Made by a program: the position numbers and the translations under genes. From positions 1,376,001 to 1,440,000 of the forward strand of contig CBDETK010000013.1 of assembly GCA_965242865.1 (NCBI GenBank): a stretch of DNA of 64,000 nucleotides, in the 5' to 3' direction. The notes under the pieces are model-generated. The model had not been told where the DNA came from. It made no database searches and saw only the letters and a program-made list of their open reading frames with translations. This stretch comes from Candidatus Latescibacterota bacterium (GTDB lineage: Bacteria; Latescibacterota; UBA2968; UBA8231). Positions 4,497 through 34,512 of this stretch are shown piece by piece. How positions within the stretch are numbered: position 1 is the stretch's first letter; each line of letters begins with the position of its first letter.

Positions 4497-4504
4497 TGGT
4501 TTAA

Positions 4505-6469: not shown

Positions 6470-6504
6470 AAAACCTCCGCCCTCTCGCTAAAGACCGCCG
6501 CTTC

Positions 6505-6894
6505 TTATGGGGTGTGGTCGCTTTCCGAAGGAGCTTGGTAGGCGGTGTATTTGAGGTTTTTGCCCTTGGCCTTTTCCACTGGATAGCGCTGGGCCGAAAT
6601 GGCCAATTTCTCCTCCAGCATGTGCGCGGCGTCCAAGCCGAAGCGGTCGCACATGAGCAGGATAAAGTACAGGGCATCGGCCAACTCGTGACCAACAGCT
6701 CGGCGGAAGGATTCGTCGGCTAGGCGCGCGGCGATCTCTTGGTCCGAGCGGAAGCGGAAGTGCTCCAAGACTTCGGCCGCTTCGGTCGAAAGACCAATGG
6801 CCAAGTCCTTAAGGGTGTGGAATTGCGCCCAGTCGCGCTCGTTTACAAAGCGGCGAACTTCGGCGGTGAGTTGGGTCAGGGTCGCGTCACTCAT
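6505..6894 (-). CDS. MazG-like nucleotide pyrophosphohydrolase (DCTPP1-like)
   Basis: FVNERDWAQFHTLKDLAIGLSTEAAEVLEHF...HELAD...RYPVEKAKG. Start re-assigned to ATG 6894 (MSDATL). Confidence 0.88.
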   Translation of the reverse strand: MSDATLTQLTAEVRRFVNERDWAQFHTLKDLAIGLSTEAAEVLEHFRFRSDQEIAARLADESFRRAVGHELADALYFILLMCDRFGLDAAHMLEEKLAISAQRYPVEKAKGKNLKYTAYQAPSESDHTP

Positions 6895-6904
6895 GGTTTG
6901 GTTA

Positions 6905-6932
6905 TATTGTAAAGCAAGGTCCGCTCGCCGCA
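6905..6932 (-). promoter_or_regulatory. Putative sigma70 promoter for the MazG-like gene
   Basis: Minus strand TTGCGG-N16-TACAAT, 11 nt before the ATG, in the short divergent intergenic region. Confidence 0.4.
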
Positions 6933-6940
6933 ATACGCCC

Positions 6941-8755
6941 ATGCCCACGCCTCCCACCTGCCCAGCCACCGTTGCTTCCCAACCACAACGCCGCCCTTGG
7001 TTCGGGCCGGCCCTCCTGTTGGTGGGGCTCACCGCCGGAGCCTATATACCGGCCATGAGCGGCGGGTTTGTCTGGGATGACGACGACTACGTGCAGGACA
7101 ACCTCACCCTGCGCTCGCTGGCCGGGCTGGGGCAGATTTGGTTCCAGCCGGGGGCCACGCGCCAATACTACCCACTGGTCTATACGACCTATTGGCTCGA
7201 ATACCGGCTGTGGGGATTGGACCCGGCCGGCTACCACGTGGTCAATGTGCTCCTGCACGCCTTCAGCACCGTTTTGGTCTGGCGGCTCTTAACCCGCCTA
7301 AAAGTCCCCGGTGCTTGGGCCGCGGCCGCCTTGTTTGCCCTGCACCCCGTACACGTCGAATCCGTGGCTTGGATTACCGAGCGCAAAAACACCTTGTCCG
7401 GCGCGTTCTACCTGAGTGCGGCTTGGGCCTTTCTGCGCTACGAAGAAGTGCGCCGGCCGCGCTGGTACGGGGCCGCTTTATTTCTTTTTGCCGCGGCCCT
7501 GCTCAGCAAGACCGTCACCTGCACCCTGCCGGCTGCCTTGGTGCTGGTGCTGTGGTGGCAGGGCCAAACGACAATAAAGCGCACGGCTGTAGCGCTCGGG
7601 CCTTTTTTTGTGCTCGGGATCGCCATGGGCGGGGTGACGGTGTGGATGGAGCGGCACAGCGTCGGCGCTTGGGGGCCAGCGTGGGACTTGTCGCTGGTGG
7701 AGCGCGGCCTGATCGCCGGGCGGGCGTTGTGGTTTTACGCGGCCAAACTCCTCGTGCCGCTCGAGCTCGCGTTTATCTACCCCCGCTGGAAAATCGACGC
7801 GACCGCGGCTTGGCAATATCTCTATCCGGCCGGGGCCTTGGGCGTCGGGGGGCTGCTGTGGGCCTTGCGGGCGCGTTGGGGGCGCGGGGTGCTGACCGGC
7901 GCGTTGTTTTTTGCCGGCACCCTAACGCCAGCACTCGGCTTTTTCAACTTCTACCCCATGCTCTACTCCTTTGTCGCCGACCACTTCCAATACTTGGCCA
8001 GTCTGGGGCTTTTGACACTAGCCGCGGCCGGGGGGCACCGCACGTGGACGCGGTGGGGGCGGCCAGCGGCCGGGCCGGTCGCGCTGGCGTTGGTTTTGGC
8101 CCTCTACAGCCTGCTCACTTGGCGGCAAGGCGAGGTTTATGCCGATCTGGAGACCTTGTGGCGCGATACGCTCGCAAAAAATGCCGGCGCTTGGATCGCC
8201 CACAACAATCTGGCCAATATCCTCAAAGAGCGCGGTCAGCTCGACGCAGCCATCGGCCACTACCGGCAAGCCCTCCTGCTAAAGCCCGGCAGCAGCCAAA
8301 TTCACCTCAACCTCGCCGACGCGCACCAAGCCCGGGGCGAGGGCGCGGCCGCCCTGCGCCACTATCGCCGCGCCTTAAACGCCGAGCCGAACCGCGTTGA
8401 AATCCACCTCAAGCTGGGCAACGCCCTCCTCGGCCAACGCGCAGTTGCCGCGGCCATTGAGCACTATCGACGCGCCCTCCAACTGGCCCCGAACCTCGCC
8501 TTGGTCCACAGCAATCTGGGCGCGGCCTTGGCGCTTCAACGACGGGACGCCGCGGCCATTGAGCACTATCGACGCGCCCTCCAGCTCAAACCCGACTTTG
8601 CCGAGGCCCACAACAATTTGGGGCGGCTGTTAGCCCTTCGGGGGCAGCTCGCCGCAGCCATTGAACACTACCGCCGCGCCCTCCAACTCAAACCCACCTA
8701 CCGCCAAGCCCAAGCCAATCTCGCCAGCGCACTGCAAGCGGTGGGGCGACCTTAA
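6941..8755 (+). CDS. TMTC-like GT-C membrane protein with C-terminal TPR repeats (putative protein O-glycosyltransferase)
   Basis: FVWDDDDYV, YYPL, ALFALHPVHVESVAWITERKN, SFVADHFQYL, followed by several TPRs (AIEHYRRALQLxP). Start taken as ATG 6941. Confidence 0.85.
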   Translation: MPTPPTCPATVASQPQRRPWFGPALLLVGLTAGAYIPAMSGGFVWDDDDYVQDNLTLRSLAGLGQIWFQPGATRQYYPLVYTTYWLEYRLWGLDPAGYHVVNVLLHAFSTVLVWRLLTRLKVPGAWAAAALFALHPVHVESVAWITERKNTLSGAFYLSAAWAFLRYEEVRRPRWYGAALFLFAAALLSKTVTCTLPAALVLVLWWQGQTTIKRTAVALGPFFVLGIAMGGVTVWMERHSVGAWGPAWDLSLVERGLIAGRALWFYAAKLLVPLELAFIYPRWKIDATAAWQYLYPAGALGVGGLLWALRARWGRGVLTGALFFAGTLTPALGFFNFYPMLYSFVADHFQYLASLGLLTLAAAGGHRTWTRWGRPAAGPVALALVLALYSLLTWRQGEVYADLETLWRDTLAKNAGAWIAHNNLANILKERGQLDAAIGHYRQALLLKPGSSQIHLNLADAHQARGEGAAALRHYRRALNAEPNRVEIHLKLGNALLGQRAVAAAIEHYRRALQLAPNLALVHSNLGAALALQRRDAAAIEHYRRALQLKPDFAEAHNNLGRLLALRGQLAAAIEHYRRALQLKPTYRQAQANLASALQAVGRP

Positions 8756-24948: not shown

Positions 24949-27151
24949 GGCGCGGGCACTGGCCGCCTTAGCTATCTTGGCCCTGGGACTGCGCTTGATT
25001 TACCTGTTCCAAGCCGCGGACAGCCCCTTTTTCGACGCGCCCATTGTAGATGCCAGAAGCTACACCGAATACGCCCGCGAGCTGACGACCGGCGCTTGGG
25101 CTGGGCGTCCCCTGCCGTTTTGGCAAGCCCCTTTTTACCCGTACCTCCTAGCCGTTCTTTTCTCCCTGTTTGGCGAAAACTACTACCTGCCGCGGCTACT
25201 CCAAGCCCTCGCTGGCACGGCCACTTGCCTGATCGTCGTCAAGTTAGGCCGCGCGGCCTTTTCCCCGACCGTGGGCTGGGTGGCCGGCCTAGCCGCGGCT
25301 TGGTACGGCCCCTTCCTCTACTTTGAGGGCGAACTTTTGCCCACGACTTGGGCCGTGCTTTTCGACGCCCTGCTGCTGGTGGTCTTGTTGTGGGGCCAAC
25401 GCCGGGGCGGGCTCCTTCCCGCGCTCAGTGCCGGTCTCGTCCTAGGGCTGGGCACTTTGGCCGTGCCAAATGTGTTGCTCTTTGCGCTGGTCGCGGCTTG
25501 GTGGGTGTATCGCGTGGCTCCGGGCCGCGGCGTCCTCCGCGTGGCGGTCTTTGCCGCTGGCCTACTGCTGCTGGTCGGCCCGGTGACCCTGCGCAATCGC
25601 ATCGTCGGCAACGAGTGGGTGCTCATCTCCTTCAACACGGGGGTCAACTTCTACCTCGGCAACAACCCGGACTACGACCGCACCGTAGCGGCGCGGCCCG
25701 GAGCCGGGTGGCACGAGGTGGTTGACTTGCCCCGCCGCGAGGCCGGCATCACCGAGCCGGGCGCGGGCTCAAACTACCTTTGGGGCAAAGCTTGGGAGTA
25801 TATACGCACCGATCCGAGCGGCTATTTGGCCCTGCTTTTGCACAAGGGCTATCTGTTTTGGCACGGGGCCGAGATCCCCCGCAACACCGATCCATACTGG
25901 GCCGCTGAGTACTCGCCGCTCTTGCGCCTGTTGCTGTGGAAGTACGGCCTCGCGTTTCCCTTTGGCTTGGTCTCGGCCTTGGCCCTGCTCGGGGCGGCCT
26001 ACGTCCTGCTCAAACCAGAACGCCGCACCCCGGGGGCCTATCTCGTCTTGCTCTTTGCCGGGGTCTATATGCTGTCGGTGGTGCTGTTTTTCGTCACCGG
26101 CCGCTACCGCTTGCCGGCCGTGCCCTGCCTTTTGCTGCTGGCCGCTTATGGGGCCTGCACCTTGGCCGGTTTGCGCGGCCGGTCCTTGTACCTGTCGGCT
26201 GGGGCCTTCGCCGGGCTGCTGTGGGTCACCAACGCCGGGACCGCAGCGACCCGGCCGCACGTGGCCGCCTTCCACCACTACTCGCTGGGTGCGGTCTATG
26301 AGAGCAAAGGCATGAAGACCAACGCCTTGCAGCACTATCGCCGCGCCATCGAACTCGCCCCGGCCCACCGTCGCGCGCTGCTGGGCCTAGCCTATATGTA
26401 CGGGGCGACTCAACGCTACGACGATGCCGCCCACACTTGGCGGCAATTCCTCGACCACTATCCAGACCAAGACGACATCCGCCTCCAGTTAGCGGATTTT
26501 CTTAGGCTGCGGGGCCAGCCCCAAGAGGCGGCGGTCGAGTACCAAAAGCTCCTAGTGCGGCAACCCAATCGCGCCGACCTGTACCTCCGCCTCGGTCGGG
26601 CCGAAGCCGCGGCTGGTCAACGGGTGCAAGCCGAAGCGGCCTATCGCCGCGCCCTCGAACTAGGCGCTCCGGCGGCTCACTACCTGCTGGGCCAGCTATA
26701 CGAAGCCCAAGGCGAGCCAGCCCGCGCCGAGCAAGCCTATCAGCAGCTCATCGCCCAGCATCCCGACCATCGCGCTGGGTTGTGCCATTTAGCCGATTTG
26801 CTGCTAAAGCGGGGGGACGAGGAAGCAGCCAAAAACCTTTTGCTCGCGGCGCTGGCGCTCGATCCCGACGACGCCCACGCCTTGCACAGCATGGGCACTT
26901 TAGAGGCCAACCAAGGTCAGTACCGCCAAGCCCTCCAGCGCTTTGAGCGCATCTTGCAACGCCATCCCCGCGATTTGCCGGCCCGCCGCTCCCTATCCCA
27001 CCTCCTGCTCAAAACGGGCCAGCGCGCCCGCGCCGATGCCGAGTACGCCCACTACCAGCGCCTAAAGCGGCAGCACCGCATGCAGCAACAGACGCAGGAA
27101 AAAACCAAGAAGCTAGCCGATCAACTGCGGCAGATGTTCAAAGCGCACTAG
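24929..27151 (+). CDS. GT-C (ArnT/PMT family 39-like) glycosyltransferase with TPR repeats
   Basis: PIVDARSY, PFYPYLLA, GVNFYLGNNP, FFVTGRYRLP, followed by multiple TPRs. Confidence 0.82.
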   Translation: MLAWANKARALAALAILALGLRLIYLFQAADSPFFDAPIVDARSYTEYARELTTGAWAGRPLPFWQAPFYPYLLAVLFSLFGENYYLPRLLQALAGTATCLIVVKLGRAAFSPTVGWVAGLAAAWYGPFLYFEGELLPTTWAVLFDALLLVVLLWGQRRGGLLPALSAGLVLGLGTLAVPNVLLFALVAAWWVYRVAPGRGVLRVAVFAAGLLLLVGPVTLRNRIVGNEWVLISFNTGVNFYLGNNPDYDRTVAARPGAGWHEVVDLPRREAGITEPGAGSNYLWGKAWEYIRTDPSGYLALLLHKGYLFWHGAEIPRNTDPYWAAEYSPLLRLLLWKYGLAFPFGLVSALALLGAAYVLLKPERRTPGAYLVLLFAGVYMLSVVLFFVTGRYRLPAVPCLLLLAAYGACTLAGLRGRSLYLSAGAFAGLLWVTNAGTAATRPHVAAFHHYSLGAVYESKGMKTNALQHYRRAIELAPAHRRALLGLAYMYGATQRYDDAAHTWRQFLDHYPDQDDIRLQLADFLRLRGQPQEAAVEYQKLLVRQPNRADLYLRLGRAEAAAGQRVQAEAAYRRALELGAPAAHYLLGQLYEAQGEPARAEQAYQQLIAQHPDHRAGLCHLADLLLKRGDEEAAKNLLLAALALDPDDAHALHSMGTLEANQGQYRQALQRFERILQRHPRDLPARRSLSHLLLKTGQRARADAEYAHYQRLKRQHRMQQQTQEKTKKLADQLRQMFKAH

Positions 27152-27514
27152 CAGAGGTCAATAATCGATAGGTTATATTCTTGAAACTGTTCAGGAACAT
27201 TTAGAGGAATCTTTGAGCAGTTATCTACAAGAATAATCTCCCTTGGAAAGCTAGTTATCTGGTGAATCTCGAAGATACCGTGTTTGTATAGAGCCGCGAG
27301 AACTTTTTCGAGTACGGCATCAGGGTCGAGATGGCTAGTGTCGATCTCGATGGGCTTGAACATTCGGTACGTTTGAAGCACGGCTTTCCGGGGGGCAGTA
27401 TCTGCTGCGAGGTTTTGCTCTTCAATTGTGGCCGGCTCACCGCGTCCACGCATCCGCTTCGTACGATTTTCCTCATCTACCGTAAGCAGGATAACCACAT
27501 CTATTACCAGTCAT
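27148..27514 (-). pseudogene. CMPK2/thymidylate-kinase-like nucleotide kinase, N-terminal (P-loop) half deleted; tail resembles a GT2 fragment
   Basis: DVVILLTVDEENRTKRMRGRG...EEQNL...IEIDTS...VLEKVL matches the NMP-kinase LID/C-terminus. No P-loop. The SD+ATG at 27514 is out of frame with it. The tail contains EIILVDNCS. Confidence 0.7.
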
Positions 27515-28373
27515 ACCGTCCTCCTCTCTGAAAAAACCGCTTGGCGTCGAGCGATATATCTTTTAAGGCTTCCTCGACTCCGACACCCAGAATGGGCCTA
27601 CTGTAGGTATGGGTCCCTCGATCGTTATCAAAAAAGCGTCCCGCTGGGTCAATCATAATGTAACTCGCGGTCATTAACTCATTGCTTTCCGGTACGACGA
27701 TTATTCCGTCATTTTCGACCACGCGATTTCGTCGAACGTACGCTTCAAATTGTTCTGTCGCGATCTCCAAATCAGCGATATACTCGTCGTTTTGCCCCTT
27801 TACAGGGAGGACTTGAAGAATTTTCCATCGTTCTGGTTTTGCCAATTTTATGAAATTGGTAAAATCCGACTCCCATGTTTCGGAGCTTACGACAGTGTTG
27901 ATTTTTAGACGTACTCCACGCTGTTTTATCGCAGCGATTTTTTGTAGATATTCTTCCTCAGTTATGGGCCTAGTATGGACGGTGCGCCCCAGTCGTTGCA
28001 GTCTTTCTGGATCGACGGTATCTATACTTAGAGCGATCCAATCTAGACTTCCATTTAGACTGTCCAGCCACTCTGTAGTGATTCTCGATCCGTTCGTGAC
28101 GATAGAGGTCACCATCCCACGTTTCTTTGCTCTTTTAATCAAGTCCGGCAGCCACTTACAGAGGGTAGGTTCACCGCCGGCAAAATTGATTTTCTCAAAG
28201 CCTTCCTGAGCGATCCGCTCTACAATCGAGATACAATCTTGTTCTGGCAGGTGACCTTTGGGTAGCTTCATATCTTGCTTGACGTCTTGAAATGTGGCAA
28301 AACAGAATCGACAGCGCATATTGCATGGTTCCCAAATATGATAGTTGACTGATGGAATTTTTGTGCTAGACAC
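27504..28373 (-). CDS. vip: Prokaryotic viperin (pVip), radical SAM antiviral ddhNTP synthase
   Basis: SVNYH..CNMRCRFCF, KINFAGGEP, SIVTNGS, LSID, KINTVV, RWKILQ, ESNELMTASY..IDPAGRF and C-terminal RGGRYDW. AGGAG RBS before the GTG start. Confidence 0.95.
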   Translation of the reverse strand: MSSTKIPSVNYHIWEPCNMRCRFCFATFQDVKQDMKLPKGHLPEQDCISIVERIAQEGFEKINFAGGEPTLCKWLPDLIKRAKKRGMVTSIVTNGSRITTEWLDSLNGSLDWIALSIDTVDPERLQRLGRTVHTRPITEEEYLQKIAAIKQRGVRLKINTVVSSETWESDFTNFIKLAKPERWKILQVLPVKGQNDEYIADLEIATEQFEAYVRRNRVVENDGIIVVPESNELMTASYIMIDPAGRFFDNDRGTHTYSRPILGVGVEEALKDISLDAKRFFQRGGRYDW

Positions 28374-28440
28374 GACTTCCCTCCTAAGACAGTTTTCTGA
28401 GCAGAATATCGCTACACTTCATTGCCGGTGAAGCCATTTA

Positions 28441-28490
28441 TTGGATAGGTGCTGACCGCAAAAAGAAATACCGCAGTCAGCACCGACCAA
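28441..28490 (-). terminator. Stable hairpin between the small ORF and pVip (attenuator or processing stem)
   Basis: Minus strand GGTGCTGACTGCGG-loop-TTGCGGTCAGCACC, 14-bp stem with G-U pairs; no U-tract after it. Confidence 0.55.
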
Positions 28491-28494
28491 TCAA

Positions 28495-28644
28495 TCATTT
28501 GCTTTTTGGAGAGGCATTATCTCGGCCTTTACCAGAAGGGTTGCCCGTTGTGCTGGGCTTGCCGCCAGGTCCGCGACTTTTGCCTTTACCGCCGTTTTGT
28601 GGACCGCCTTTACTGCCTCCGCGACCACCTTTCGATTTAGCCAT
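28495..28644 (-). CDS. Small Gly/Lys-rich basic peptide (49 aa)
   Basis: Perfect SD AAGGAGGTGA before ATG 28644; MAKSKGGRGG...PSTTGNPSGKGRDNASPKSK. An in-frame TTG at 28686 is an alternative start. Confidence 0.7.
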   Translation of the reverse strand: MAKSKGGRGGSKGGPQNGGKGKSRGPGGKPSTTGNPSGKGRDNASPKSK

Positions 28645-28683
28645 TTTCTCACCTCCTTTCTCGCAGAGATTCACCGCATCACA

Positions 28684-28742
28684 CAAGTATTCCCTAGCGG
28701 TGTACTACTTAAACACCTTCAGCGGCGCGGAGCGTTACTTTT
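28684..28742 (-). promoter_or_regulatory. Putative ECF-dependent promoter/5' UTR, copy 2 (upstream of peptide-pVip)
   Basis: AAAAGTAAC-N17-GTGTTTAAG; 49/59 ungapped identity with 32666..32724. Confidence 0.75.
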
Positions 28743-28783
28743 GCAGTGGATTTTTGTTGCGACGAAAGGATGAGTAGGCCCGT

Positions 28784-30823
28784 CTAGCGGCTGTAGCGCA
28801 GGCCAAAGAAAAAGCCCGGCCACGCGAAAAGCCCATCCTTCCATTCCTTCTCGTAGCGGCTACCCGACTCGATCAGCCGAAGATGGCTATCGGTCCACAA
28901 CTGGTTCAAGGAGACGCCGCCAAACAGCGACAGATGGCGGTGCAAAAAGACCCCGGTTCCGAGTTTGATTCGGGCCAGATAGTTGTCCTTACTCAAGCGG
29001 TCCAAGCCCAAATCCACCTTGAGCGGCCAAAGGCCAACGCCTGCTTTGTAATCGTCATCGAGAGCGCGGCTGATCCGGTAGATATGTGCATCGAGGCCGA
29101 GGAAGAACCGCTGGCCGCGCTTCTGCACCCCGACCCCTAAGCCCAACGCCCAGCGTCGCTGGCCGCCCGCGTCGGCAAAGCCCGTGGTAAAAGAGGTGTA
29201 AAACGAGCGGCTGCCCGAGGCGAGCGTGAATAGGGTAAAGCCGACTTCGTCGCGCCAAGTGCTGAAGTTGAAAAGCCCGCTGCGCGAGTAGTTGATCAGC
29301 CCGATGGGCAAGCCGCCCTCGATATGGCCAGAAAGGTTGATCACGCCCACCTGCAAGCCCTTGACCTCGCTCGCCGCGTTCAATACCCCGACCTGCCAAC
29401 CGCGGATTTTGCCGGCGATGTTGAGCAACCCTACTTGGCCACCCTGCAAAGGCCCCAACCCCGAGCCGCGCACTTGAGAGGCGATGTTGAGCAACCCTAC
29501 TTGGCCGCCTTGTAACGGCCCCAGCCCCCAGTTGACGCCTGTGAGGGTCGCCTGCCAGCCATCGATCTCCTTGAGTGCCAAGTTGCCCACCCAACTGACT
29601 TGAGTGCCCGTCCGCGCCCGCGCTTGGTTGACCAGTAAGGCGAACTGGACGCCGCGGAACGCCTCGTCTTGGGTATTGGTCAGCAGCCCCAGCGACAGCG
29701 TATAGCGCTCGCCGGCGGCAACCTCGATTTGGCGGCCCAAGGTGATCCTCGGCCGCGAGCCGCCGCGTAGCCTAGCGTCCTCTGGGGACAGGGCGCGAAA
29801 GTCGCCGCCCCGCACCTCGGCGAACCCGCCCTTAGTCAGGTCCAACTCGGCCACTTGCCAGCCTGCATCCCCCATTGCCAAAAACAGGGTATAGGCCCCC
29901 GGCACCAATCCCAACTCGACCGACCGCCCGGGGGACTTGTTCAGTTCGGCGACTAGGCGTTGCTGGGCATTGCGAACGAAGAGCCGACCGGCGAGGCCCT
30001 CGTCTAGCAACAGGCCCGCGGCGTTGCGGCGCACCGCAGTCAACACCACGTCGCCGGTGCCGCGCATCTGGCCCTCATAGGCTGGATGCTGAGTGCCCCC
30101 GGCGGTGCCAATAGTCCGCGCCCGCGTCTCGTCAAAGACGAACTGGTAAGCCTCGTGGAGGGTCACCCAGTCATCGCCGTTAACGTTGGCCGCGCCGCGC
30201 AGCCCGGAAATTAGATAGTGAGTAAAAAAGGACGCCTCGATCCGGTCCGATTCCTGCGCGGCCTCGTCGGCCGAGCTCGACGTGAGGAAGGCGTACCCCT
30301 GCATGTCGAAGGACTCGTCGACCAAAAAGGGCGGCTGGCGCTTGCCCCCTTTGGTGCGGGTTATGGCCCCGGAGTTACAGGCGTCGAGGATGGCGATGCG
30401 GAAGGCGGCCTCGGTCGTCTCTAGCGAGTCGAGCAACTGCTGATAGCCGAGGCGGTCGCCCTTCGCCAAAAGCAGGCCCTCTTCGTCGGCGTGGCCCGAG
30501 TAGTAAAGCAGCACCTCTAAGCGGCCCGCCCGCCGCCGGGCCGCCTGCACCCGCCGGCCTAGATCGGCCAGCCCCTGCTCAAAAGCAGCCAAATCCGGGT
30601 CGCGCAACAGCAACACATCGGCCGGGTCCAAGCCCCCCATCTCCTGCAAGACCGCGACGAAGTGTTCCGCGTCCGAGACCGCGTAGCGCAACAGTTCGCG
30701 GTCCACCCCGCCGTTGTTGGCCCCGGCAGCCAGCACCAACCGGCGCACCTCGGCCGCGGCCGGCTGCAAAGACAGGCTCGCCGCAACCACGAGCGCGATT
30801 AGCCCACTCAGCCGCGATACCAT
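28784..30823 (-). CDS. Secreted caspase-family (peptidase C14) protein with Gly-Gln repeat region and C-terminal beta-rich domain
   Basis: Signal peptide; LRYAVSDA, YYSGHAD, LDACNSG (His-Cys dyad), SFFTHYLISGLRG; GxQxGLxN repeats; ends WPGFFFGLRY. Confidence 0.88.
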   Translation of the reverse strand: MVSRLSGLIALVVAASLSLQPAAAEVRRLVLAAGANNGGVDRELLRYAVSDAEHFVAVLQEMGGLDPADVLLLRDPDLAAFEQGLADLGRRVQAARRRAGRLEVLLYYSGHADEEGLLLAKGDRLGYQQLLDSLETTEAAFRIAILDACNSGAITRTKGGKRQPPFLVDESFDMQGYAFLTSSSADEAAQESDRIEASFFTHYLISGLRGAANVNGDDWVTLHEAYQFVFDETRARTIGTAGGTQHPAYEGQMRGTGDVVLTAVRRNAAGLLLDEGLAGRLFVRNAQQRLVAELNKSPGRSVELGLVPGAYTLFLAMGDAGWQVAELDLTKGGFAEVRGGDFRALSPEDARLRGGSRPRITLGRQIEVAAGERYTLSLGLLTNTQDEAFRGVQFALLVNQARARTGTQVSWVGNLALKEIDGWQATLTGVNWGLGPLQGGQVGLLNIASQVRGSGLGPLQGGQVGLLNIAGKIRGWQVGVLNAASEVKGLQVGVINLSGHIEGGLPIGLINYSRSGLFNFSTWRDEVGFTLFTLASGSRSFYTSFTTGFADAGGQRRWALGLGVGVQKRGQRFFLGLDAHIYRISRALDDDYKAGVGLWPLKVDLGLDRLSKDNYLARIKLGTGVFLHRHLSLFGGVSLNQLWTDSHLRLIESGSRYEKEWKDGLFAWPGFFFGLRYSR

Positions 30824-30834
30824 GGATTTTAACT

Positions 30835-31407
30835 CTACCAGATTTCGCTGAGATCCAATACAAATCCCGGCAAGAGGGGATCGGCCGATAGGGCCTTGAG
30901 GTTTTGCCGCACTTCAACCGGGGTTTGCGGGCAGTAGATCGCTATGGTTTTTTGCTCTGGGACCATGAGCCAGCCGAGTTGAGTGCCGTTTTCAATGTAT
31001 GCTTCCATTTTCTGTTGCAACGCGGGCAGGTAATCCGAGGGCGACTTGAGCTCGATGACAAACTCTGGACAAAGCGGCAAAAAGCGCTCCTTTTGCGCCT
31101 CGGTCAGGGCATCGTATCGCGGCCGCGCAACCCACGCGCCATCCGGCGAGCGAACCGAGCGGTCCGGTAGCACAAAGCCGCTCGAGGAATCAAAGGCCAC
31201 GCCAGTGCCATCGCGTTTGGCCCACAAGCCCAACTGCATGGTGATTTCTGCATTCCGGGCACCCGTTGCTCCGCCCGTTGGTAGCATAACGAGTACTTCT
31301 CCTTTTGCATTGCGCTCAATGCGCACATCGCGATTGAACTGACAAAAGTCAAAGAATTGCTCTTCGGTCAGGTCGATAACGGGCTGAAAGTTTAGTACGG
31401 CTTCCAT
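30835..31407 (-). CDS. Uma2 family PD-(D/E)XK endonuclease
   Basis: ERNAKGE, FDSSSGF.LP...RSPD.AW, CPEFVIELKSPSD, KM..Y..NG..LGWL, LPGFVLDLSEIW. Start MEAVL at 31407. Confidence 0.92.
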   Translation of the reverse strand: MEAVLNFQPVIDLTEEQFFDFCQFNRDVRIERNAKGEVLVMLPTGGATGARNAEITMQLGLWAKRDGTGVAFDSSSGFVLPDRSVRSPDGAWVARPRYDALTEAQKERFLPLCPEFVIELKSPSDYLPALQQKMEAYIENGTQLGWLMVPEQKTIAIYCPQTPVEVRQNLKALSADPLLPGFVLDLSEIW

Positions 31408-31430
31408 AGAGATACCTCGCGGGTCGAGTG

Positions 31431-32198
31431 CTAAGGGGCCGCTGGTTTGCGTAGGGTGAAGGTAAAGAGGTGGACGTCGTCGGCCAGCGCCTTGTCGCCG
31501 GCGGCCAGCTTGGCCCGGATCGGAGCTAGGGCAAAGCGGCGGTCGGCCGCCACCAAGTAAAACCGCTCCCACAGCGGCGCGTCGTCGAGTTCGTAGGCCG
31601 CGTCGAGGGTATCTTGCGCTGCCAACGGCACGGCCTGGGTTCCGGCCGTTGGCAAGTGCCAAGTGACAGCCCCGCGCCCATCAATGGACAGGATCGCCCC
31701 GTACTGCAAGCCGCCGGAGCGGTAGGCGAGCTGCACCCAGTCCCCGCTTTGGGCCAAGGTCCAGTCCTGCAAGCGCTCGGCCCCGCTGGCCTGCTTGCGG
31801 AAAACCTGCAAGCGCGGCGTCCGCTCACCGCCCTTGACCCGCAGGGCGGGGGCTTGCGGGGTTTCTCGGTCAAAGAGAGTGGGCACCGCCACCACCGCCA
31901 GGATCAGGGCCACGGCCGGAACGGCCCAAAGGCGATACCCACTCCACGCTCGTCGGGCGCGCCGGCCCGACGCCCGCTTGAGTTTTAGCTCGATCTGGCC
32001 GCGCATCCATTCGGGGGGATAGCGCCTAAGCACGTCCTCGTTGGACCGCGCTAGGGCGGCTAGACGCTCTGCGAGCGCGGGGTCGGACGCCAACTGGCGG
32101 TCCAAAGCCGCCAACTCAGCCTCCGTACCCTCGCGCAACAAGTAGCGTTCTAGCTGGTAGTCGCTGATGGGGCGCTCTTCTTGCTCTTGCTCGTTCAT
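31431..32198 (-). CDS. Putative membrane anti-sigma factor (ActD-like, DUF4384-like periplasmic domain)
   Basis: Coupled to the ECF gene (4-nt overlap). N-terminal LERYLL.E, one TM helix, RVKG, then QLAY...ILSIDGRG...YELDDAP..ERF. Confidence 0.75.
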   Translation of the reverse strand: MNEQEQEERPISDYQLERYLLREGTEAELAALDRQLASDPALAERLAALARSNEDVLRRYPPEWMRGQIELKLKRASGRRARRAWSGYRLWAVPAVALILAVVAVPTLFDRETPQAPALRVKGGERTPRLQVFRKQASGAERLQDWTLAQSGDWVQLAYRSGGLQYGAILSIDGRGAVTWHLPTAGTQAVPLAAQDTLDAAYELDDAPLWERFYLVAADRRFALAPIRAKLAAGDKALADDVHLFTFTLRKPAAP

Positions 32199-32668
32199 GC
32201 TTTCTCCATCTCTTGCAGCGACGCTCTCAGGCCGAGCAATCGCTTGCGCACCCCGGACACGGACAGCCCCACTTCCCGCGCTACCTCGGCCAAAGTCATG
32301 CCGTCAACGTAGTACAAGACGGCCATCGTGCGCGTTGACTCGCGCTGCTGGCCAAAGAGCTTGGCGAGCACGGCACGCGCCTCTATTCGGCCCTCGGCGT
32401 CCTCCCAGCAGGCGATCTGCTCCAGCAGCGTTGAGTCGGCCGTGGTCTTGCGCCGCTGGGTGTCGCGGATGCGATTGAGGCAGAGGTTGGTGGCCATGCG
32501 GTAGAGCAGGCTGGAGGGGGCGTCGGCCCGCAGGCGGTCGCGCCGCGTCAACAGCCGCACAAAGACATCCTGCGTGGCGTCGAGCGCTTGGTCTTCGTCG
32601 CGCAATAGCTGCCGACAGCGACGCAGGACCATCGGTCCGTAGCGACGGTACAGTGTATCTACATCCAT
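32195..32668 (-). CDS. ECF RNA polymerase sigma-70 factor
   Basis: LYRRYGPMVLRRC, ALDATQDVF, LYRMATNLCLN, DGMTLAEVAREVGLSVSGVRKRL. Start ATG 32668. Confidence 0.93.
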   Translation of the reverse strand: MDVDTLYRRYGPMVLRRCRQLLRDEDQALDATQDVFVRLLTRRDRLRADAPSSLLYRMATNLCLNRIRDTQRRKTTADSTLLEQIACWEDAEGRIEARAVLAKLFGQQRESTRTMAVLYYVDGMTLAEVAREVGLSVSGVRKRLLGLRASLQEMEKA

Positions 32669-32724
32669 GTAGTTCCTGGCGGTGTACTCCTTAAACACCT
32701 ACGGCGGCGCAGGGTGTTACTTTT
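32666..32724 (-). promoter_or_regulatory. Putative autoregulatory ECF promoter/5' UTR, copy 1
   Basis: AAAAGTAAC-N17-GTGTTTAAG, about 25 nt before the sigma ATG; an AAC-containing -35 is typical of ECF promoters. Confidence 0.75.
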
Positions 32725-32781
32725 CCTCGCTCTGGGCCGGGTCGTCGATCGGCATAACAGGCTCCTGAAACTGGGCCAACC

Positions 32782-34512
32782 CTAGGCGGTAAAGAGCGCC
32801 AAGACGGTCCAGCACAAAGCCGCCAAGCACGCCGCAAGCGTCGCCTGCGGGATTTGCGTCTTGACGTGGTCCATCAGGTCGCAGCCTGTACACATGGAAC
32901 TCAGCACGGTGGTATCCGAAATCGGCGAGCACTGGTCGCCGTACACGCTGCCGTCCATGACCGCGGCAAAACACAGCGTCATAAACAGCTCGGGATGCGC
33001 CAAGCCGTTGGAGCCGGCCACCGCCCAAGCAAGCGGCATGGCCAATGGGAACGCCACCGCATACGTGCCCCAGCTCGTGCCGGTAGAAAAGGCGATGACC
33101 ATGGTGAGGAGCTGGAGCAGGACCGGCAGGAGGAAATACGGAATGGCCTCGCCGAGCAGTTCGACCAAAAAGATGCTGCCGCCCGCCTCCTTGCTGATGC
33201 CGCCGATGGTGATGGCTAGCAGCAAAATAACCGAGCCGAGCACCACTCCCTTAATGCCGTCGTGAAAGCCGGCGATGAGGTCTTTCAGCGCCATGCCCTT
33301 GGCCAAGGCCATGCCCGCGGCCAACAAAAGCGCGATGCCAAAGGCCCACTGCACATTGGGCGAGCCGCTCGTGATAAAGGTGCCGACCGCAATGGCGATG
33401 AGCGTGCCGAGCGGCAAGAAGAATTCGAGGACGTGCGGCGAGTACCCGGCCGGCACGTTGCTCCCTTGCAGCTCCTTGGCGCTCAAAGGGTCGGCAGAAG
33501 GCGAGTCGAGCTGGCCGGTCGTGCGGGCGCGCTGCATGGCCGCCTTGAGTTGCGACCCCAAAAAGAGGGGCCTTTCAATGCTGAGGAGGAACGTGCCCAA
33601 GACGGCAAAAATGGCGTAAAAACAAAAGGGCACGCTTTGGAAAAAGAAGGCAATGCGATCCGCTTCCGTGGCCAAAAAGCCCACGCCGGAGACGAAGATA
33701 AACGCCTGCACATAGCCGGGCCAAGCGTTGAACGCGAGCTGAGAGGCAATCGGCGAGGCCGTTGAATCGACCACGTAAGCCAACTCCTCGTGGCTGATTT
33801 TTTCGTTGTCGGCAATGGGTTTGACCGTGGTGCCGACCAAGACCGTGCTGACCGTCCCGCCTTGGAAAAAGACTACCCCGAGCATCCAAGCGACCAACTT
33901 GGCACTGCGGGGGCCGCGCACAAAGCGCTCGGTCATAAATTCGGCAAAGGCTTGAGCCGCGCCCGTGCGCGACCATATCCCCATCAGCCCGCCCAACAGC
34001 CACAAGTAGAGCAGCAGAATCCCGGCCGCGTTTTTGGTCGCCAAGGAGGGAATGAGCACCTCGCCGGTGAAGTCGTAGCGGCCCAACAGGAGCGCGCCGG
34101 AGATGATGCCGCCCAACAGGGAGGTGACCGGTTCTTTGGTCAGCCAACACAACAGCACGGCCACCAAGGCCGGCAGCAGCGACCAATAGCTCCAGTGGCG
34201 CTTGGCTACCAGTTTGTAGTAGCGGTCCGTCAGGGCCTTTTTGTCAAACTCTTTGACGAACTCTTCGCGGACCGACGGTGCAGTACCCGACCGATGTATT
34301 TTGGCCGGGTCGAGCTGGGCTTGCTCTAGGGGCACGGCCTCAAAATAGACGGGTTTTTCGCGGTAGATGTAGTACAGCTTGCCGTCGCTGTCCGCTTTCA
34401 CGTCTAACTCGGCCCTTTCGACCGTCCAAGTCGGCGTCACGTTGGCCCCGACGATCCAAGACGCGAGCATGGCGACGACAAAAATGGCAAAGTTGCGAAT
34501 GCCTCTGGGCAT
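32782..34512 (-). CDS. Na+/H+ antiporter NhaC family protein
   Basis: ISHEELAYVVDSTASP, FSTGTSWGT, GDQCSPISDTTVLSS...DHVKTQ. Confidence 0.88.
   Translation of the reverse strand: MPRGIRNFAIFVVAMLASWIVGANVTPTWTVERAELDVKADSDGKLYYIYREKPVYFEAVPLEQAQLDPAKIHRSGTAPSVREEFVKEFDKKALTDRYYKLVAKRHWSYWSLLPALVAVLLCWLTKEPVTSLLGGIISGALLLGRYDFTGEVLIPSLATKNAAGILLLYLWLLGGLMGIWSRTGAAQAFAEFMTERFVRGPRSAKLVAWMLGVVFFQGGTVSTVLVGTTVKPIADNEKISHEELAYVVDSTASPIASQLAFNAWPGYVQAFIFVSGVGFLATEADRIAFFFQSVPFCFYAIFAVLGTFLLSIERPLFLGSQLKAAMQRARTTGQLDSPSADPLSAKELQGSNVPAGYSPHVLEFFLPLGTLIAIAVGTFITSGSPNVQWAFGIALLLAAGMALAKGMALKDLIAGFHDGIKGVVLGSVILLLAITIGGISKEAGGSIFLVELLGEAIPYFLLPVLLQLLTMVIAFSTGTSWGTYAVAFPLAMPLAWAVAGSNGLAHPELFMTLCFAAVMDGSVYGDQCSPISDTTVLSSMCTGCDLMDHVKTQIPQATLAACLAALCWTVLALFTA

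What the first reader, a model, noticed from the sequence alone, without database searches (positions are those of the whole stretch)
27148..32724. Candidate signal-inducible antiviral system: ECF sigma / anti-sigma / secreted caspase controlling a peptide-viperin-kinase operon
Seen: ECF sigma, TM anti-sigma-like gene, (Uma2), secreted His-Cys caspase-domain protein, small peptide, pVip and a CMPK2-like kinase remnant are all co-directional. The sigma's own promoter-like element is repeated in front of the pVip cassette. Established: ECFs usually autoregulate; pVips make chain-terminating ddhNTPs; animal viperin and CMPK2 are neighbouring interferon-induced genes; in type III-E CRISPR a caspase-like protease (Csx29) cleaves Csx30 to release a sigma factor. 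Inference: an envelope signal activates the periplasmic caspase, which cleaves the anti-sigma, and the released ECF induces viperin, giving a bacterial analogue of an interferon-stimulated gene. I do not know of this wiring being described. Caveat: the pVip cassette is visibly lower in GC and partly decayed, so it may have captured the promoter by chance.
Basis: partly seen in the sequence, partly recalled or inferred. Interest (0 to 1): 0.9.

Follow-up and report, generated by a model that had tools for sequence, protein, structure and literature searches.

The report
Viperin captured behind an ECF promoter
A widely conserved stress-sensing gene trio (sigma factor, its membrane inhibitor and a secreted caspase-like protease) lies next to an antiviral viperin gene in this uncultured bacterium, but relatives show the pairing is a recent local accident, not a designed antiviral switch.

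Summary
The 59-nt repeat is real: it has two copies in the 6-Mb genome and is conserved in relatives.

The ECF sigma, TM anti-sigma and C14 caspase form a conserved trio. It was found in all 33 loci fetched with the anti-sigma, including MAGs labelled Myxococcota and Acidobacteria. The repeat is the trio's own promoter, GTAAC-N17-GTGTTTAAG. In relatives its extra copies precede a small Gly/Arg/Lys peptide, an LptE-like lipoprotein and secreted proteins.

The viperin link is not conserved:
- pVip occurs in 6 of 31 genus genomes, and in only three at this locus.
- In the other two, pVip lies behind a canonical terminator and a sigma-70-like promoter, and the ECF promoter is deleted or IS-disrupted.
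- This genome lacks about 230 nt there, so pVip sits 121 nt behind the ECF-driven peptide.
- The pVip reading frame looks healthy; the kinase is a stump.

Verdict: promoter capture by insertion and deletion. ECF control of pVip is plausible here but untested. The closest known system is DdvS/DdvA of Myxococcus.

The parts
32666..32724 (-). Promoter copy 1 (GTAAC-N17-GTGTTTAAG) with the 5' UTR of the ECF sigma operon; inferred to be autoregulated
   Evidence: Repeat D2. Conserved upstream of sigma in 15 of 20 loci by a 46-nt pattern and in 17 of 33 by a strict regex. Related motifs are seen by eye in more distant loci.
32195..32668 (-). ECF (group 4) sigma factor, 157 aa from the ATG
   Evidence: Pfam Sigma70_r2 and r4_2 and TIGR02937 all score above their cut-offs. 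Best PDB match by sequence is SigW, E 1.7e-7.
31431..32198 (-). Single-pass TM anti-sigma-like protein, 255 aa: helical N-terminal domain, hydrophobic segment around residues 90-109, periplasmic beta-sandwich 129-250
   Evidence: Start overlaps the sigma stop. Present next to sigma in 33 of 33 loci. AF2 model pLDDT 78. No Pfam or PDB sequence match. The family has 2,091 representatives at E<=1e-30.
30835..31404 (-). Uma2-family endonuclease gene, an inserted passenger and not part of the conserved trio
   Evidence: PF05685, 127 bits. Full length in 3 of the 33 loci, plus fragments in a fourth.
28784..30823 (-). Secreted C14 caspase-domain protein, 679 aa: leader peptide, caspase domain with H111/C149, beta-rich middle with LA_2272-type repeats, C-terminal beta domain that weakly resembles small outer-membrane barrels
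   Evidence: PF00656 36 bits and NF047436 27 bits. Catalytic dyad invariant in 17 sequences. AF2 pLDDT is only 62. Foldseek hits to NspA, OmpW, PagL, OprF-N and to caspases have E 4e-3 to 5e-2, none <=1e-3.
28684..28742 (-). Promoter copy 2, the same ECF-type promoter, in front of the peptide gene
   Evidence: The same module follows the caspase gene in G005 and twice in G019, and follows it at about 1.1 kb in G021, all without pVip.
28495..28644 (-). 49-aa Gly/Lys/Arg-rich peptide gene with a strong RBS; the direct target of promoter copy 2
   Evidence: Sequence. Homologous peptides follow the same promoter in G005, G019, G021, G042 and G041. No Pfam match. Only 4 database relatives, none with an informative name.
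28448..28484 (-). Conserved 14-bp hairpin after the peptide gene, with no U tract behind it
   Evidence: 127 nt, -42.6 kcal/mol, z -3.4. The same hairpin follows the peptide in G005, G019 and G014 and survives as a remnant in G010.
28385..28465 (-). 81-nt spacer: a remnant of the 311-nt region that in G014 holds a perfect terminator and a sigma-70-like promoter. Only the 5' arm of that terminator is left here.
   Evidence: blastn mapping, sequences, fold of the G014 region, promoter scans.
27504..28373 (-). Prokaryotic viperin (pVip), 289 aa, GTG start, intact
   Evidence: NF038283 316 bits; PADLOC pVip 309 bits. dN/dS 0.12 against G010 and G014. Differs at 2 of 108 columns that are invariant in 11 other pVips, both changes conservative.
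27148..27498 (-). Decayed tail of the cassette: the C-terminal part of the viperin-associated kinase (27271-27501) fused to an internal GT2 fragment (27162-27275). The P-loop half, 351 nt, is missing.
   Evidence: Intact G014 genes: Thymidylate_kin 56.8 bits, PADLOC PDC-M51B 98 bits and VakA 51 bits, Glycos_transf_2 52.9 bits.

Best explanation
The locus is two things of different age joined together.

(1) An old, conserved envelope-type signalling module. It consists of an ECF sigma, its single-pass anti-sigma and a secreted caspase that is probably tethered to the outer membrane. The sigma is inferred to transcribe its own operon from GTAAC-N17-GTGTTTAAG. The same promoter, with a characteristic 5' UTR, has been copied in front of other genes in this genus: a small Gly/Arg/Lys-rich peptide, an LptE-like lipoprotein and secreted proteins.

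(2) A low-GC viperin cassette (pVip, thymidylate-kinase-like kinase, GT2). It sits in the variable slot just behind the ECF-driven peptide gene in the lineage of G000, G010 and G014. There it had its own terminator-insulated, sigma-70-like promoter.

In this genome later deletions removed the 3' half of that terminator, the cassette's own promoter, the kinase P-loop half and most of the GT2 gene. The intact pVip now lies 121 nt behind the peptide stop codon. Only a U-tract-less hairpin lies between them.

The most likely consequence is that pVip is now transcribed mainly by read-through from the ECF-dependent peptide promoter. That would be an accidental promoter capture, not an evolved ECF-viperin circuit.

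Shown: gene identities, the promoter family, the comparative anatomy and the deletions.
Inferred: that the sigma uses this promoter, read-through of the hairpin, the anti-sigma role, any caspase-anti-sigma proteolysis and pVip activity.
For: - Trio in 20 of 20 and in 33 of 33 fetched loci.
- Promoter family: two copies in G000; 17 aligned copies from 13 genomes with GTAAC and GTGTTTAAG invariant; related motifs upstream of sigma in distant loci.
- Targets in relatives: peptide, LptE-like lipoprotein (PF04390, 23.2 bits against a cut-off of 23) and secreted proteins. In G023 and G002 the promoter, UTR and first peptide codons are fused in frame to the lipoprotein.
- Promoter-peptide module without pVip in G005, G019 (two copies) and G021.
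- pVip in 6 of 31 genus genomes and 13 of 168 phylum genomes. It is at the ECF locus only in G000, G010 and G014, all with the same left junction.
- G014 has a 17-bp stem followed by UUUUUAUUUUU (z -6.95) and a 10-of-12 sigma-70-like site about 100 nt before pVip. The window has neither.
- dS between G000 and G010 is 0.74 for pVip and 0.42-0.61 for sigma, anti-sigma and caspase, so the cassette has been there for roughly as long as the species have diverged.
- pVip shows no sign of decay: dN/dS 0.12, and 2 of 108 invariant columns changed conservatively, within the range of 0-4 seen in ten of the other eleven pVips (G166: 26).
- Elsewhere in the phylum pVip also follows a small peptide gene and a hairpin, which makes read-through of such hairpins more plausible.
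Against: - No transcript data exist: no RNA run is listed for this organism.
- The hairpin is strong and conserved and may terminate efficiently even without a U tract. pVip would then be silent or use an unrecognised promoter.
- Promoter scans use an E. coli-type consensus, which may not apply in Latescibacterota.
- The order of events is not resolved. A peptide-pVip-kinase unit is conserved in four genera.
- That the sigma recognises this promoter is inferred from conservation and position only.
- The direction of the 230-nt difference, deletion here rather than insertion in G010/G014, rests on the orphan terminator arm.
Confidence: 0.6

Rival explanations
1. One reading: a dedicated, signal-inducible antiviral system. 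An envelope or phage cue activates the periplasmic caspase, which cleaves the anti-sigma. The released ECF then induces a peptide-viperin-kinase operon as its evolved output.
For: - The trio is conserved, and the catalytic dyad is invariant.
- A real ECF promoter lies 214 nt upstream of the pVip start, with no consensus promoter or terminator between.
- A peptide followed by pVip and a kinase is a conserved unit in four genera.
- There is a precedent in DdvS/DdvA.
Against: - pVip follows the trio in 1 of 33 loci.
- G010 and G014 insulate pVip and have lost the ECF promoter.
- Regulon members in relatives are envelope proteins and small peptides, not defence genes.
- The kinase is destroyed here.
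- The closest relative has neither the module nor pVip.
- Outside this locus the pVip units follow a different upstream gene and a structured leader, not the ECF promoter.
Confidence: 0.12
2. pVip is a transcriptionally orphaned relic. The deletions that removed its promoter and its kinase are steps in the loss of the cassette, the hairpin terminates the peptide transcript, and viperin is not expressed to any useful level.
For: - Three internal deletions and a truncation surround pVip.
- The start codon is GTG here and ATG in G010 and G014.
- The strong hairpin is conserved after the peptide gene.
- The cassette is missing in most relatives.
- In run X4 a contig that differs from the window at 86 of 4,174 positions runs past the caspase stop into sequence unlike the window.
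Against: - The pVip ORF, its RBS and all conserved columns are intact, although everything around it has been deleted.
- dN/dS is 0.12, though this averages over both lineages.
- PADLOC has a model for viperins not associated with kinases, and this protein matches it at 309 bits.
Confidence: 0.2
3. pVip is expressed independently of the ECF. The source would be a promoter inside 28374-28500 that the consensus scan does not recognise, or transcription running through from the sigma-caspase operon.
For: - An 8-of-12 match (TTCACC-N16-GATATT) can be read in the spacer, below the scan's threshold.
- No terminator is called between the caspase stop and the module.
- Promoter rules for this phylum are unknown.
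Against: - The candidate is weak.
- Read-through from the sigma operon would still be ECF-dependent, because that operon carries the same promoter.
Confidence: 0.08

Closest known systems
DdvS/DdvA of Myxococcus xanthus: ECF sigma plus TM anti-sigma controlling a CBASS / type III-B CRISPR defence island (PMC11506125, passages read; PMC6061681, abstract seen in the listing)
   Same: An ECF sigma is held by a single-pass anti-sigma, with a caspase-family His-Cys protease module in the periplasm. Proteolysis is proposed as the first step of sigma release. A defence gene lies behind an ECF-type promoter.
   Different: In DdvA the caspase-like TPR-CHAT domain is part of the anti-sigma. Here the anti-sigma has a small beta-sandwich domain and the C14 caspase is a separate secreted protein. 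DdvS control of the island was shown by experiment; here nothing has been tested. Here the defence gene is attached in only one lineage.
Type III-E CRISPR craspase (Csx29 TPR-CHAT cleaves Csx30 and so frees a sigma factor): PMC10028731, abstract seen in the listing; the mechanism is otherwise recalled
   Same: A caspase-family protease is proposed to release a sigma factor during defence.
   Different: That system is cytoplasmic and RNA-guided. No CRISPR component was seen among the genes examined at 24-36 kb. Here the protease is secreted and belongs to C14, not TPR-CHAT.
Cell-surface signalling (FecA/FecR/FecI type) and sigmaE/RseA/DegS envelope stress pathways (reviews seen only in the listing; mechanisms recalled)
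   Same: Three-part logic: an envelope or outer-membrane partner, a TM anti-sigma and an autoregulated ECF. The regulon includes outer-membrane biogenesis genes such as the LptE-like lipoprotein.
   Different: No TonB-dependent transducer, no FecR domain and no DegS-type serine protease. The envelope partner is a caspase.
pVip and pVip-kinase defence systems (PADLOC models PDLC02903-02905; NCBIfam NF038283; the biochemistry of ddhNTP chain terminators is recalled, not read here)
   Same: The viperin matches at full length. In relatives the neighbouring kinase matches viperin-associated kinase models.
   Different: The kinase is truncated here. The ECF-type promoter and the small peptide upstream are not part of the described systems as modelled in PADLOC.

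Membership tests
Prokaryotic viperin (pVip) | Full-length match to curated viperin models above the cut-off | tested here: met
   NF038283 at 316.4 bits against a cut-off of 180; PADLOC pVip at 309 bits.
Prokaryotic viperin (pVip) | Radical-SAM CxxxCxxC cluster motif and conserved core residues intact | tested here: met
   The CNMRCRFC motif is present. Only 2 of 108 columns invariant in 11 other pVips differ, I for L and I for V.
Prokaryotic viperin (pVip) | Makes ddhNTP and protects against phage | not testable with these tools
   Needs expression, LC-MS and phage challenge.
pVip-kinase pair | Intact nucleotide kinase next to pVip | tested here: not met
   Only the C-terminal ~77 residues of the kinase remain, and the P-loop half (351 nt) is deleted. 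The gene is intact in G010 and G014.
ECF (group 4) sigma factor with cognate anti-sigma | [quoted passage not shown] | tested here: met
   Sigma70_r2 at 55.4 bits, r4_2 at 26.9 bits and TIGR02937 at 81.7 bits, all above their cut-offs.
ECF (group 4) sigma factor with cognate anti-sigma | Co-transcribed TM anti-sigma with a recognisable anti-sigma domain | tested here: inconclusive
   Position, overlapping stop and start, the helical N-terminal domain with one hydrophobic segment and 33-of-33 synteny all fit. No Pfam or PDB sequence match to known anti-sigma domains was found.
ECF (group 4) sigma factor with cognate anti-sigma | Autoregulated bipartite promoter conserved upstream of sigma | tested here: met
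   GTAAC-N17-GTGTTTAAG in 15 of 20 and 17 of 33 loci by pattern; related motifs in distant loci by eye. Use of the promoter by this sigma is inferred.
DdvS/DdvA-type ECF-controlled defence island | Anti-sigma carries a periplasmic TPR-CHAT domain | tested here: not met
   The periplasmic domain is a beta-sandwich of about 125 aa. The caspase is a separate gene.
DdvS/DdvA-type ECF-controlled defence island | Defence genes are the conserved output of the ECF promoter | tested here: not met
   pVip lies behind the trio in 1 of 33 loci. The outputs in relatives are peptides, an LptE-like lipoprotein and secreted proteins.
Caspase / peptidase C14 | C14 domain with a His-Cys dyad | tested here: met
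   PF00656 at 36 bits against a cut-off of 21.4. H111 and C149 are invariant in 17 sequences.
EACC1-associated caspase (NF047832) | Score above the curated cut-off | tested here: not met
   70 bits against a cut-off of 140.
Fec-type cell-surface signalling | TonB-dependent transducer and FecR-domain anti-sigma | tested here: not met
   No such Pfam domains in the caspase protein or the anti-sigma.

The most novel reading that the evidence does not exclude
The ECF sigma, anti-sigma and outer-membrane-tethered caspase trio is an undescribed and widespread envelope-surveillance pathway. Its anti-sigma family has more than 2,000 representative clusters and no Pfam model. In this pathway a periplasmic C14 caspase would serve as the site-1 protease. 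In this strain a deletion has put an intact viperin under its control, so an envelope insult such as phage attack would induce an antiviral nucleotide synthase, a natural example of a defence gene being recruited into a stress regulon. In parallel, Latescibacterota viperins in general would be expressed behind a small basic peptide and a leader that sequesters the Shine-Dalgarno sequence, in a slot where the cargo is swapped between pVip, a beta-CASP RNase and a B12 radical-SAM enzyme. That would be a new regulated defence platform.
Probability: 0.2. Interest if true: 0.75.

Novelty: new variant of a known kind. Interest (0 to 1): 0.5.

Why it matters
How bacteria switch antiviral genes on is mostly unknown. 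The one well-studied ECF-controlled defence island, DdvS/DdvA, also involves a periplasmic caspase-like module.

This locus offers three things:
- A second architecture, with the caspase as a separate protein, that is conserved in MAGs labelled as several phyla and could be tested for caspase-driven anti-sigma proteolysis.
- A dated natural experiment in regulatory capture. The same viperin cassette is insulated in two species and fused to a stress promoter in a third.
- A pointer to a conserved leader RNA and peptide that accompany viperin elsewhere in the phylum.

It does not, as it stands, show a bacterial equivalent of an interferon-stimulated gene.

Tried and rejected
Complex prediction. 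The caspase (residues 25-360) was folded against the anti-sigma periplasmic domain (105-255), both as 17-row alignments. The verdict was 'no answer', with scores of 0.00 and 0.01 against a mark of 0.32. This counts neither for nor against binding.

Expression data. No RNA holder is listed for the stretch. Only contigs of DNA-type runs could be laid, so nothing can be said about transcription. In X4 the segment 27151-28788 is covered only by short contigs identical to the window. The contig covering 28788-32962 carries 86 other letters over 4,174 positions and runs into unlike sequence before 28779. I use this only as a hint of strain variation.

Rfam. Nothing relevant was found in 27000-33000: one sub-threshold asX3 match, E 0.84. 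Nothing at E<=0.1 was found in six loci that hold the viperin leader.

Small peptides. No Pfam hit was credible; the best were E 0.1-0.25. My initial guess of a KGG-type stress protein was not supported. The word-index search found only 4 relatives, none with an informative name.

Anti-sigma. No Pfam match at E<=5. No PDB sequence match better than E 0.09. Foldseek gave only generic Ig-like sandwiches of the RhoGDI type, with no hit at E<=1e-3. My guess of a DUF4384-like domain was not confirmed.

Caspase model. Mean pLDDT is 62 and the caspase domain itself is poorly modelled. The outer-membrane-barrel reading of the C-terminus rests on Foldseek hits with E 4e-3 to 5e-2 and is only a lead.

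The ~580-aa protein that precedes the peptide-viperin unit elsewhere. No Pfam or PADLOC hit. The Atlas returned only weak leads, HEAT repeats and DUF6138, at scores of 0.88-0.90 with low recognition.

G000's own LptE-like gene (41% identity) has no copy of the promoter. In this genome the strict regulon is therefore only the sigma operon and the peptide.

A relaxed motif, G[GT][AG]AC-N15-17-GGTGTT, has 29 hits in G000, most of them inside genes. I do not treat it as a regulon.

Literature. Searches found no paper on a C14 caspase gene next to an ECF/anti-sigma pair, nor on sigma-factor control of pVip. The main text of the ECF re-classification paper (PMC7826278) contains none of the terms C14, CHAT, peptidase or cysteine protease. 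A review mentions CHAT proteins in the context of group ECF54, which lacks an anti-sigma (PMC8999054, one passage).

Full report
**What is there**

The window is G000:C13:1376001-1440000 of a 6.0-Mb genome with 60.6% GC. Relatives carry record titles of Candidatus Latescibacterota MAGs. Some runs that hold parts of the stretch are labelled sponge metagenome.

On the minus strand between 32724 and 27148 lie, in order:
- a promoter-like element;
- an ECF sigma gene;
- an overlapping gene for a single-pass membrane protein;
- a Uma2 gene;
- a 679-aa secreted C14 caspase-domain protein;
- a second copy of the promoter-like element;
- a 49-aa Gly/Lys/Arg-rich peptide gene with a very strong RBS;
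- a 14-bp hairpin;
- a full-length prokaryotic viperin;
- a 116-aa ORF.

Family assignments come, and the scores are given under the observation check. The region from about 27000 to 28700 has 45-50% GC against about 60-69% in the flanks. The GC3 of pVip (0.46) and of the peptide (0.40) is far below that of sigma, anti-sigma and caspase (0.80-0.81).

**The repeat is a real promoter family**

The two 59-nt copies are 83% identical. They are the only two places in the genome within 12 substitutions of a 47-nt core.

In 20 loci fetched from the genus and one sister genus, a copy stands about 55 nt upstream of the sigma start in 15 of 20. In 33 loci found with an anti-sigma profile, 17 of 33 match a strict pattern there. 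By eye, related motifs of the form GT[AG]AC-N16-GGTGTT stand at the same place in most of the more distant loci, including MAGs labelled Vicinamibacteria and Myxococcota. I saw none in L087 and L094.

An alignment of 17 copies from 13 genomes has GTAAC and GTGTTTAAG invariant, with a variable G+C-rich spacer between them. That is the signature of a bipartite ECF promoter. That this sigma reads it is inferred from position and conservation. It was not tested.

**The trio is old; viperin is not part of it**

Sigma, anti-sigma and caspase are adjacent in 20 of 20 loci and in 33 of 33. In one locus the caspase lies upstream of sigma, and in one the contig ends inside the caspase gene. The catalytic His and Cys are invariant in 17 caspase orthologues.

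The anti-sigma family is large, with 2,091 representative clusters at E<=1e-30, yet it matches no Pfam model. Uma2 is a passenger: it is full length in 3 of the 33 loci and present as fragments in a fourth.

pVip lies within the fetched flank in only 1 of the 33 loci. It is present in 6 of 31 genomes of the genus and in 13 of 168 genomes of the phylum.

The closest relative fetched has 87-88% amino-acid identity in the anti-sigma and the caspase. It is collinear with the window from the Na+/H+ antiporter gene to 10 nt past the caspase stop, and then continues with unrelated genes.

**What the promoter drives elsewhere**

Extra copies of the promoter, together with a conserved 5' UTR ending in GGAGGTGA, precede:
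- homologues of the small peptide, in G005, G019 (twice), G021, G042 and G041, and a second peptide type in G014;
- a lipoprotein that reaches the Pfam LptE threshold (23.2 against 23 bits), in seven genomes;
- secreted proteins of unknown family.

In G023 and G002 the promoter, the UTR and the first eight peptide codons are fused in frame to the lipoprotein's signal peptide. In one G019 copy the peptide is followed directly by a secreted-protein gene with no hairpin between them. The promoter-UTR-peptide-5' segment thus behaves as a portable expression cassette. The regulon looks like an envelope regulon, not a defence regulon.

**How viperin came to sit here**

G010 and G014 carry the same cassette at the same place, with the same left junction just after the peptide hairpin. 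There the cassette is complete. It has pVip, a 213-214-aa thymidylate-kinase-like protein that matches the viperin-associated kinase models, and in G014 also a GT2 gene.

Between the peptide hairpin and pVip these genomes have two features:
- a perfect 17-bp stem followed by UUUUUAUUUUU (z -6.95);
- an A+T-rich stretch with a 10-of-12 sigma-70-like site about 100 nt before the start codon.

In G010 the ECF promoter and the peptide gene are deleted, leaving only the upstream flank and the hairpin. In G014 what reads as the start of an IS gene, and the contig end, replace the promoter.

Against G014, the window shows these differences:
- 81 nt where G014 has 311; only the 5' arm of the terminator is left;
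- the first 351 nt of the kinase are missing;
- a further 259 nt are missing, which joins the kinase tail to an internal GT2 fragment;
- homology ends at 27162.

A consensus scan of 28300-28800 finds no sigma-70-like promoter and no canonical terminator.

The pVip frame itself is untouched. dN/dS is 0.12 against G010 and G014. Only two conservative differences occur in 108 columns that are invariant among 11 other pVips, within the range of 0-4 seen in ten of those eleven; G166 is divergent, with 26. dS between G000 and G010 is 0.74 for pVip and 0.42-0.61 for the three neighbouring genes. The cassette has therefore probably been at this locus for about as long as these species have been separate.

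**Reading**

The simplest account is an insertion of a self-sufficient viperin cassette into the variable slot behind the ECF-driven peptide. In this lineage, deletions then removed its insulation and its own promoter. Viperin would now be transcribed, if at all, by read-through of a U-tract-less hairpin from the ECF-dependent promoter.

I put about 0.55 on such read-through taking place. I put about 0.6 on the whole account, which holds that any ECF control is incidental.

The rivals are:
- an evolved ECF-viperin circuit (0.12);
- an orphaned and silent relic (0.2);
- ECF-independent expression (0.08).

Outside this locus, pVip in four genera lies in a conserved low-GC unit. The unit consists of:
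- a gene of about 580-650 aa of unknown family;
- a small peptide gene, in three g2 genomes clearly homologous to the window's peptide;
- a hairpin;
- a leader of about 127 nt;
- pVip;
- usually a kinase or a fragment of one.

So 'peptide-viperin-kinase' is a genuine recurring unit. The order of events at the ECF locus is not settled: the promoter-peptide module may have come first, or the peptide-pVip unit may have. The upstream regions differ, however. The ECF-locus cassettes lack the leader, and the other units lack the GTAAC...GTGTTTAAG promoter.

**Mechanism of the trio (inference)**

The anti-sigma model has a helical cytoplasmic domain and a confident periplasmic beta-sandwich. The caspase protein has a leader peptide, an intact dyad and a beta-rich C-terminus that weakly resembles small outer-membrane barrels. 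A periplasmic caspase tethered to the outer membrane could plausibly act as the site-1 protease for the anti-sigma. It could equally be just an output of the operon. The complex prediction gave no verdict.

The closest published system is DdvS/DdvA. There the caspase-like TPR-CHAT domain is part of the anti-sigma, autoproteolysis is proposed but not shown, and the ECF controls a CBASS/CRISPR island (PMC11506125, passages). The general idea is therefore in print. A separate C14 caspase gene and a viperin output did not appear in my four searches.

**Verdict**

- Observation: confirmed.
- Interpretation: partly supported. The promoter and the trio are real. The viperin wiring is a lineage-specific capture and not a conserved system.
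- Novelty: a new variant of a known kind.
- Interest: 0.5. This rests on the conserved and unstudied sigma/anti-sigma/caspase trio, the clean natural example of regulatory capture, and the side finding of a leader-plus-peptide slot with swapped cargo.

Noticed in passing
Outside the window: G000 C13:4314341-4314469 (L102:2842-2970); also L096-L101, L047, L048, L104-L116: A conserved structured leader of about 127 nt lies directly upstream of pVip in four genera. It has three stems, then CCUUUC paired with the Shine-Dalgarno GAAAGG. RNAalifold gives 29 pairs, 5 of them with compensatory changes. There is no Rfam match. Covariance model R1 finds one copy per genome in 15 of 151 phylum genomes. 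The gene behind it was read in 14 of these: pVip in 7, a beta-CASP/RMMBL metallo-beta-lactamase-fold protein in 5 (including G000) and a B12-binding radical-SAM protein in 2; G041 was truncated and not read. This looks like a slot with swapped cargo and a shared regulatory leader.
   Followed up: partly
L047:3650-5389, L102:791-2548 and the equivalents in L096-L101: A protein of about 580-650 aa with no Pfam or PADLOC match always precedes the small peptide gene of that slot, and its stop codon lies inside the conserved peptide 5' region. The Atlas gave only weak HEAT/DUF6138 leads. It may be the constant partner of the variable cargo.
   Followed up: partly
L052 (G023), L055 (G002), L051 (G013), L054, L056-L058: The ECF promoter, its UTR and in some genomes the first eight codons of the peptide are fused in front of an LptE-like lipoprotein gene (PF04390, 23.2 bits). 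The promoter module appears to move as a portable cassette.
   Followed up: partly
L047/L048 about 5400-5530 (oriented so that pVip is on the + strand; L048 reversed); L101 about 4480-4600; G000 C13:261459 and C13:4311988: A ~110-nt insert carrying a GGAAC-N16-GGTGT motif, flanked by a duplicated TGGGAAG.ATAG, lies between the 580-aa gene and the peptide in G001, G013 and G166. Near-identical motifs occur at two other places in G000. It may be a small mobile promoter-bearing element, or a second ECF-type promoter family.
   Followed up: no
window 27151-28788: In run X4 a contig that differs from the window at 86 of 4,174 positions covers 28788-32962 and then continues before 28779 with sequence unlike the window. 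Only short contigs identical to the window cover the pVip segment. Run X5 holds pieces of pVip and of the peptide at about 96-97% identity. This is a hint that the module and pVip vary between strains.
   Followed up: partly
window 30835-31404: A Uma2-family gene is inserted between the anti-sigma and the caspase here and at full length in 3 of 33 related loci. In G019 only fragments of it remain.
   Followed up: partly
window 29387-29518: A tandem 66-nt repeat (76% identity) inside the caspase gene, in the region where the protein matches LA_2272-type surface repeats.
   Followed up: no
L028 (G010), oriented 5088-6990: In G010 an HSDR_N plus HRDC protein gene, and a 372-aa ORF that I read as a transposase (not checked against any family library), lie between the caspase gene and the viperin cassette. 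This shows that the slot collects mobile and defence-type genes.
   Followed up: partly
L049 (G020), oriented 460-2493: In G020 pVip lies at a third locus next to a PLD/NgoFVII-like protein (PF09565, 28 bits). No peptide gene was detected upstream.
   Followed up: no
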